Assembly (NCBI RefSeq): GCF_033153115.1 | Contig: NW_026889759.1 | Span: 6,324,001-6,388,000 of the forward strand | Length of the DNA stretch: 64,000 nucleotides | From: Saccostrea echinata | Lineage: Eukaryota | Reading direction: 5' to 3' | Part shown: positions 46,264 to 46,397 of the stretch, piece after piece | How positions within the stretch are numbered: position 1 is the stretch's first letter | Layout of the letters: each line of letters opens with the position of its first letter | Position numbers and translations under genes: made by a program | The notes under the pieces: generated by a model | Databases searched by the model: none | Seen by the model: only the letters and a program-made list of their open reading frames with translations | Told to the model about the DNA's origin: nothing

Positions 46264-46397
46264 AAAAGGATGAGTATCAATTTGGTGAGTTGGATACCCG
46301 TTGTCAGGAGACTGACGTCACCTAACAAACGAGCAGATCCAGATGCTTTCGGCTCATGTGGAGTGAGTTTATCAAACCAACACACCACGGCTCATCC
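46264..46397 (-). ncRNA. Putative Pol III structured small RNA, type A1
   Basis: Intact stems, T4 terminator, TATA-like element. Confidence 0.72.

What the first reader, a model, noticed from the sequence alone, without database searches (positions are those of the whole stretch)
46268..46397. Sequence motifs shared by A and B: a Y-RNA-like bulge and a conserved unpaired core
Seen: where the helices diverge, non-helical sequence is conserved. The motifs are CCG on the 5' side and A(A/C)U(U/C)GA on the 3' side of the bulge, a core UGAGnCnAAAGCAnCURGAUCURCUC, and GGGUAWCCA. The upper helix contains paired GUG/CAC in both types. Established: vertebrate Y RNAs have CCG opposite ACUUGA at the Ro60-binding bulged helix and a GUG-CAC motif in the upper stem that is shared with sbRNAs. 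Vault RNAs have an A-box starting near +10 (here TGGCTTGGTGG at +11) but also an internal B box, which I do not find here in canonical form. Inference: the RNA may bind a TROVE-domain protein (Ro60 or TEP1), and the core may be a second protein-binding or base-pairing module.
Basis: partly seen in the sequence, partly recalled or inferred. Interest (0 to 1): 0.7.

Follow-up and report, generated by a model that had tools for sequence, protein, structure and literature searches.

The report
Divergent Y-like RNA arrays in oyster
This oyster genome holds tandem arrays of a 130-base structured RNA-like gene that matches no catalogued RNA family and is separate from its ordinary Y and vault RNA genes; it likely descends from Y RNA and is predicted to link one of the oyster's many Ro60 RNA-surveillance proteins to a partner through a conserved hairpin.

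Summary
The motifs are real. They belong to a family of ~125-140-nt candidate Pol III genes (TATA, PSE-like element, T-run end): 11 copies in the window, 29 loci in the genome, one divergent homolog on a metagenome contig, no Rfam match. The 'unpaired core' is a 7-bp hairpin with compensatory changes (28 of 29 sequences); only its 9-nt loop AG(A/C)C(A/G/U)AAAG is unpaired. GGGUAWCCA is mostly helical and not family-wide, and GUG/CAC sits at different positions in A and B. The genome has a separate canonical Y RNA, nine vault RNAs, 7SK and TEP1, so this family is none of these. Its ends resemble the genome's own Y RNA more than shuffles do (6 and 23 of 5000), with CCG at 8-10, but the canonical Ro60 site is altered (GAGCCGU for GGUCCGA; C faces AUA). 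The genome also carries about 25 Ro60-like loci under purifying selection. Best reading: a derived Y-RNA paralog family with a remodelled Ro60 site and an effector hairpin. Expression and protein binding are untested.

The parts
46268..46397 (-). Type A candidate Pol III RNA gene, 130 nt (the copy named in the finding)
   Evidence: (fold z -4.7)
46441..46459 (-). PSE-like upstream element at -62 to -44, shared by types A, C, D
   Evidence: 15 genome matches, all upstream of family copies; 84% A vs C against about 55% in flanks; 8 of 11 bases match U6 upstream at the same offset
46421..46428 (-). TATA-like box at -31 to -24
   Evidence: same offset as in U6 and the canonical Y gene
46391..46397 (-). 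5' strand of terminal stem P1 (pairs with 46268-46274)
46388..46390 (-). CCG at RNA positions 8-10, the Y-like bulge, 5' side
   Evidence: 27 of 29; same position as in Rfam Y consensus
46275..46282 (-). AAUUGA plus the extra UA: Y-like bulge, 3' side, remodelled
46377..46387 (-). Upper stem P2, 5' strand (A-box-like; pairs with 46283-46293)
   Evidence: 4 of 11 pairs change on both sides; strict A box in 5 of 29
46338..46362 (-). Conserved core hairpin, 4+3 bp
   Evidence: 28 of 29 fully paired with compensatory changes
46346..46354 (-). 9-nt loop AG(A/C)C(A/G/U)AAAG, the candidate effector site
   Evidence: 28 of 29; kept in L074 on a different stem
46295..46335 (-). Long variable hairpin, sequence free, pairing kept; its 3' strand supplies GGGUA
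   Evidence: 13 of 14 pairs change on both sides
46264..46267 (-). T4 terminator, followed by a second T run
45724..45851 (-). Neighbouring type B gene (61% identical to A)
42135..49562 (-). Whole array: 7 type A and 4 type B copies, plus one internally deleted A copy near 44248-44323

Best explanation
The motifs mark a family of structured ~130-nt genes, likely transcribed by Pol III and likely derived from Y RNA, whose remodelled CCG/UUGA bulged helix would bind a Ro60 protein while the conserved 9-nt hairpin loop is predicted to recruit a second protein. Shown: multi-copy genes with TATA, upstream element and T-run end; a panhandle with a multi-branch top; a covarying core hairpin; distinct canonical Y and vault genes elsewhere; an expanded Ro60 family under purifying selection. 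Inferred: transcription; La binding at the 3' U tail; Ro60 binding at positions 5-11 and the facing strand, by the canonical protein or by one of the divergent paralogs; tethering of Ro60 to an effector (nuclease, helicase or transport factor) for RNA surveillance or stress response, as Y RNA does in bacteria.
For: Structure: 92.4% of cells paired, 21 of 41 pairs change on both sides, 0 of 500 shuffles, slid controls 37-44%; fold z -3.4 to -5.2 in 5 of 5. Independent homolog L074 scores 91.7 bits, is 58-63% identical, keeps the bulge and loop, and has UUAUC after GUGG. Y-likeness: profile of the family ends scores the genome's Y RNA 12.9, five vault RNAs, U6 and 7SK at most 3.6; 6 of 5000 and 23 of 5000 shuffles reach it; the models align the Y RNA end to end as top hit among the Pol III loci. 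Rfam Y and ceN72 consensus lines show the same motif order and spacing. Ro60: 29 TROVE matches; 10 of 12 loci examined show the His187-equivalent motif in one frame, and L051's is visible; dN/dS 0.12-0.32 in 4 of 6 pairs, the other 2 saturated; paralogs also named in S. cucullata and O. edulis. PMC4201824 (passages): Ro60 contacts mainly the 5' strand, bacterial Y RNAs are diverse, multi-branched and tether Ro60 to PNPase.
Against: The 5' strand keeps only 4 of 7 bases of GGUCCGA, and C8 faces AUA instead of being a single bulge; PMC4726728 (passages) says such changes abolish vertebrate Ro60 binding. No Rfam Y or sbRNA hit even at E 10 on single genes. In 98 kb of background the Y RNA (18.5 bits) only ties with a plain palindrome (18.6), and the test was designed after seeing the likeness. 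UUAUC is in 1 of 29. The genome has a canonical Y RNA that can serve Ro60; in C. elegans only CeY, not the 18 sbRNAs, was found with ROP-1 in extracts (PMC4726728, passages). The arrays are not adjacent to a Ro60 gene (nearest seen 760 kb away). Co-expansion may be coincidence in a genome with many expanded families.
Confidence: 0.45

Rival explanations
1. Y-derived but Ro60-independent, like most nematode sbRNAs: the bulge is a remodelled relic or binds another protein, and function lies in the upper stem and core hairpin (for example in replication initiation or chromatin).
For: Altered Ro60 site; one canonical Y plus a multi-copy divergent family parallels CeY plus sbRNAs (PMC4726728, PMC4450293, passages); GUG/CAC at the loop-proximal position in B and C, UUAUC in L074.
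Against: Type A has UUG/CAA and L074 GUG/CGC at that position; UUAUC is absent from 28 of 29; the bulge is the most conserved sequence of the family, which implies a binder.
Confidence: 0.22
2. A new class of Pol III RNA unrelated to Y RNA; the CCG/UUGA likeness is chance or convergence and the partner is some other protein.
For: No Rfam match; weak rank of Y against background; a multi-branch core not described for animal Y RNAs (PMC4201824, passage).
Against: Motif order and spacing at both ends match Y; L074 adds UUAUC at the Y position.
Confidence: 0.2
3. A vault-RNA offshoot that binds TEP1.
For: A-box-like upper stem at +11 as in this genome's vault RNAs (strict in 5, relaxed in 25 of 29); TEP1-like gene present; similar size and branching.
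Against: B box in 0 of 29; no ACUUCG; nine true vault RNAs over the Rfam cut-off elsewhere; family models do not hit them.
Confidence: 0.06
4. Silent or non-functional tandem repeat; the conservation reflects recent duplication.
For: Several copies are damaged; type B has a rearranged upstream element.
Against: Compensatory changes between types 55-73% identical; gene and upstream element conserved while flanks are at background; homolog L074; a contig of another organism bridges B and A with a different spacer (table 5).
Confidence: 0.04
5. The core is an antisense guide to rRNA, snRNA or mRNA.
For: The loop is unpaired and conserved; one of 4 cores tested paired with 7SK better than 291 of 300 shuffles.
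Against: The other 3 of 4 did not; loop positions 3 and 5 vary in ways incompatible with one target; the rest of the core is in a stem. rRNA and mRNA were not searched.
Confidence: 0.03

Closest known systems
Metazoan Y RNA (Rfam RF00019); this genome's own copy at G000:C9:17144533-17144601
   Same: TATA-type upstream promoter and T-run end; 5'/3' panhandle; GG start, CCG at 8-10, GUGG at about 18-21, CCAC...GCUA...ACUUGA on the 3' side; 3-nt bulge opposite.
   Different: GAG for GGU at 5-7, U for A at 11, extra UA after UUGA so the C is not a single bulge; a conserved internal hairpin and a long third stem instead of a variable loop; 29 loci in arrays; below Rfam detection.
Nematode stem-bulge RNAs (Rfam RF01656 ceN72-3_ceN74-2)
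   Same: Multi-copy Y-related Pol III family beside one canonical Y; about 130 nt; AACUUGA on the 3' strand as in type C; UUAUC in L074.
   Different: sbRNAs keep GGUCCG with a single bulged C and a conserved UUAUC, and their loops are variable; no hit to RF01656.
Bacterial YrlA/Yrn1 RNAs
   Same: Modular design: Ro-binding part plus conserved multi-branch effector part; loop of 5 of 29 copies equals the GNCGAAN0-1G motif of PMC4201824.
   Different: No tRNA-like T or D arm; the G of that motif varies (A/G/U) in the loop; not encoded next to Ro60.
Vault RNA (Rfam RF00006)
   Same: Size, Pol III ends, A-box-like strand at +10/+11 paired in the upper stem.
   Different: No B box, no ACUUCG; separate vault loci on C2 and C22.
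7SK (Rfam RF00100)
   Same: GGAUGAG/CUCAUCC terminal pairing of type A recalls the 7SK end helix (recalled, not from a call).
   Different: Half the length, no 3' hairpin after the end helix; a separate 7SK gene lies on C60.

Membership tests
Y RNA | Own upstream Pol III promoter and oligo-T terminator | tested here: met
   Sequence level only: TATA at -31, conserved element at -62, T4 or longer
Y RNA | 5' and 3' ends pair into lower and upper stems | tested here: met
Y RNA | 5' strand GGUCCGA | tested here: not met
   GAGCCGU, 4 of 7 bases
Y RNA | Single bulged C in a continuous helix | tested here: not met
   C8 faces AUA in predicted folds; extra UA relative to the genome's Y RNA
Y RNA | 3-nt bulge on the opposite strand and (A)CUUGA | tested here: met
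   A(A/C)U(U/C)GA in 28 of 29; exact ACUUGA in type C; bulge is predicted, not probed
Y RNA / sbRNA | GUG-CAC in the upper stem next to the loop | tested here: inconclusive
   At 18-20 in B and C; A has it at 13-15; absent in L074 and most D
Y RNA / sbRNA | UUAUC at the start of the loop | tested here: not met
   1 of 29 (L074 only)
Y RNA / sbRNA | Match to Rfam RF00019 or RF01656 | tested here: not met
   the genome's canonical Y does match both
Y RNA | Binds Ro60 and La | not testable with these tools
   Needs EMSA or immunoprecipitation
Vault RNA | Internal A box | tested here: inconclusive
   Strict in 5 of 29, relaxed in 25 of 29
Vault RNA | Internal B box | tested here: not met
   0 of 29; present in 4 of 5 vault loci printed
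Vault RNA | Match to Rfam RF00006 | tested here: not met
   12 genome matches, none in the arrays
Vault RNA | Binds TEP1 / co-purifies with vaults | not testable with these tools
   Needs biochemistry
7SK | Match to RF00100, about 270-330 nt with 3' hairpin | tested here: not met
   Single separate locus on C60

The most novel reading that the evidence does not exclude
Oysters run a diversified Ro60 system: one canonical Ro60-Y RNA pair plus many divergent Ro60 paralogs served by a second, remodelled Y-like RNA family whose altered bulge sets paralog specificity and whose conserved hairpin tethers an effector. This would be the first animal case of co-diversified Ro60 proteins and Y RNAs with a bacterial-style effector module, possibly used in stress or antiviral RNA surveillance.
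Probability: 0.2. Interest if true: 0.85.

Novelty: new variant of a known kind. Interest (0 to 1): 0.62.

Why it matters
Y RNAs are documented in vertebrates, nematodes, a few insects, lancelet and bacteria (PMC4726728, passages); my searches found no molluscan report. This genome gives both a canonical Y RNA and a second, structured family with a conserved effector-like hairpin, next to an expanded Ro60 family. That makes two open questions directly testable: how strict the Ro60 recognition code is, and what protein an animal Y RNA tethers Ro60 to. If the family proves unrelated to Y, it is an uncatalogued conserved Pol III RNA class.

Tried and rejected
Expression: no RNA holder listed; contigs of runs guessed to be RNA run through promoter and spacer and cannot show a transcript; no conclusion drawn. 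Mapping cross-organism substitutions on the fold was inconclusive: the table was cut, paralogs were mixed, and many pairs appeared broken. Rfam scans of the window, the array and three single genes gave only chance hits; no tRNA. Viral contigs: 0 matches; phage records: no match; the one prokaryotic pattern match (L076) scores 10.6 bits without a stem or terminator and was rejected as chance. Three other genome matches of the 5' motif are chance. A second model with L074 found the same 29 loci. A universal oyster PSE could not be defined: Y and vault upstream regions differ, and the 7SK row of the aligned table was mis-extracted and ignored. Hammerhead, SRP helix 8, telomerase template, Sm site and box C/D readings were considered by eye from recalled motifs and dropped. 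Core pairing with Y, U6, vault and 7SK gave nothing consistent. Earlier-findings look-ups returned nothing. Stein 2005 and Green 1998 were not held and the supplement of PMC4450293 was unavailable, so base-by-base Ro60 contacts and individual sbRNA sequences could not be checked.

Full report
Observation. The coordinates hold one copy, on the minus strand, of a repeated 130-nt unit with a TATA-like box at -31, an upstream element at -62 and a T4 end. Nothing matches Rfam in the window, the array or single genes. The array lies between a likely DHHC palmitoyltransferase gene (read by eye; Pfam gave no hit on the one exon tested) and an ankyrin/SOCS-box gene.

The family is larger than A and B. 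Genome searches gave a second cluster 90 kb away and a third on contig C37 with types C and D. A covariance model found 29 loci: 19 on C10, 9 on C37 and one degenerate copy on C52 (150 candidates scored, so a lower bound). A pattern scan of metagenome contigs returned one AT-rich contig, L074, with a homolog that scores 91.7 bits and is 58-63% identical to the four oyster types; its host is unknown. Contigs of two other organisms cover the gene bodies with loose ends at their borders, and one bridges B and A with a different spacer. Between A and C the gene is 68% and the upstream element 84% identical by pairwise alignment, the flanks 52-58%.

Structure. Five representatives fold with z -3.4 to -5.2. 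On 23 distinct rows, 92.4% of cells pair and 21 of 41 pairs change on both sides, with 0 of 500 shuffles reaching this and slid controls at 37-44%; the alignment was fitted to the model and the rows are related, so this is support, not a probability. In one search type A rows were out of register in this helix; anchoring on the loop and allowing one bulged base on either side gave 7 of 7 pairs in 28 of 29 sequences, with four of the seven pairs changing on both sides. What is conserved in sequence is the loop AG(A/C)C(A/G/U)AAAG with its closing G-C pair (28 of 29). GGGUAWCCA fits 16 of 29 and is helical. GUG/CAC is at 13-15 in A and 18-20 in B and C. So the truly conserved non-helical elements are two: the CCG/UYGAUA bulge and the 9-nt loop.

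What it is not. The genome has a canonical Y RNA on C9 (36 bits, cut-off 38; GGUCCGA, CACUUGAC, UUAUC, TATA, T4), nine vault RNAs over the cut-off, 7SK, U6 arrays and a TEP1-like gene (named by eye from its exons). The family has no B box (0 of 29) and its models do not hit the vault loci.

Relation to Y RNA. The Rfam consensus lines for Y and for nematode ceN72 share with the family a GG start, CCG at 8-10, GUGG near 18-21, and CCAC...GCUA...ACUUGA before the terminal stem; L074 adds UUAUC after GUGG. A profile of the family's two ends scores the genome's Y RNA 12.9 and five vault RNAs, U6 and 7SK at most 3.6; 6 of 5000 plain and 23 of 5000 structure-keeping shuffles reach 12.9 (a post hoc test of my design). 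The covariance models align the Y RNA end to end at 18.5-19.1 bits, but in 98 kb of background a plain palindrome scores the same. The Ro60 site itself is remodelled: GAGCCGU for GGUCCGA, and an extra UA so that the C faces three bases. PMC4726728 (passages) states that changing the bulges or conserved bases abolishes vertebrate Ro60 binding; PMC4201824 (passages) states that Ro60 contacts mainly the 5' strand and that bacterial Y RNAs keep only a GNCGAAN0-1G motif. I therefore do not file the family as Y RNA, but rate descent from Y at about two in three.

Candidate partner. TROVE matched 29 places, of which 3 are exons of the TEP1-like gene and most others long single-exon frames. One is a canonical Ro60 (E 4e-136 to the human protein). 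Of 12 examined, 10 show the His187-equivalent motif by pattern, only 2 keep an intact DxSxS (His187 and MIDAS from passages of PMC4030889 and PMC11277228), three tested carry TROVE plus vWA_Ro60, and dN/dS is 0.12-0.32 in 4 of 6 pairs, saturated in 2. Among the 120 homologs listed, 7 are named from S. echinata, 6 from S. cucullata, 2 from Ostrea edulis and 1 from Magallana gigas. A variant RNA site beside variant Ro60 proteins is suggestive, but no call links them.

Mechanism and odds. Most likely (0.45): Pol III makes a 130-nt RNA, La takes the U tail, a Ro60 protein binds the remodelled bulge, and the hairpin loop recruits an effector, so that the RNA works as a tether or gate in RNA surveillance. 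All of these steps are inferred. Rivals: Y-derived but Ro60-independent like sbRNAs (0.22; PMC4450293 and PMC4726728, passages), unrelated new Pol III class (0.2), vault offshoot (0.06; PMC7916137, passages), non-functional repeat (0.04), antisense guide (0.03).

Novelty. Searches for Y RNA with mollusc, lophotrochozoan or oyster terms and for an oyster Ro60 expansion found no description; PMC2770079 (passages) notes vault RNAs in two lophotrochozoan lineages and Y RNAs only in vertebrates and nematodes as of 2009. The library lacks most subscription papers, including the Stadler-group surveys, so absence from print is not established. PMC12135203 (passages) added nothing decisive. Verdict: a real, conserved, uncatalogued RNA gene family, best read as a new variant of the Y/sbRNA kind; interest 0.62.

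Noticed in passing
G000:C9:17144533-17144601 (-), L061: A canonical ~70-nt Y RNA gene with TATA box and T4 end, just under the Rfam cut-off; no molluscan Y RNA turned up in the literature searches.
   Followed up: partly
G000:C2:30963100-31072466 and C22:9657034-12014742 (L062-L066): Nine vault RNA genes over the Rfam cut-off in two regions; the C2 copies have a B-box hairpin, the C22 copy printed has a degenerate one.
   Followed up: partly
G000 contigs C1, C4, C10, C15, C16, C23, C40, C51, C53, C72, C83 (L043-L054): About 25 Ro60-like loci, 38-99% identical among the intact ones examined, most without an intact MIDAS motif, some with stops or frameshifts; purifying selection in intact pairs; shared with other oysters.
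   Followed up: partly
window 45883-45898 (and other type B copies): Type B carries the core of the PSE-like element in inverted orientation, directly against the TATA box; this region is also covered by contigs of two other organisms.
   Followed up: partly
window 49413-49562, 44248-44323, 48206-48331: Variant A copies: an internal 20-nt duplication, an internal deletion, and a copy with CCA for CCG.
   Followed up: no
L021:5045-5178: Subtype A2 with its own compensatory changes in the core hairpin and third stem; several of its letters recur in another organism's contig.
   Followed up: partly
G000:C52:15616051-15616178 (L075): Lone degenerate type D copy with intact upstream element but a disrupted core.
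   Followed up: partly
window 265-27163: Tandem cluster of seven single-exon ligand-gated ion channel (nAChR-like) genes; one confirmed by Pfam.
   Followed up: no
G000:C29, C159, C313, C328: U6 genes in long tandem arrays with a 2.15-kb unit (48 scored, a lower bound).
   Followed up: no
window 32097-33305: Tandem repeat of about 156 nt, eight copies.
   Followed up: no
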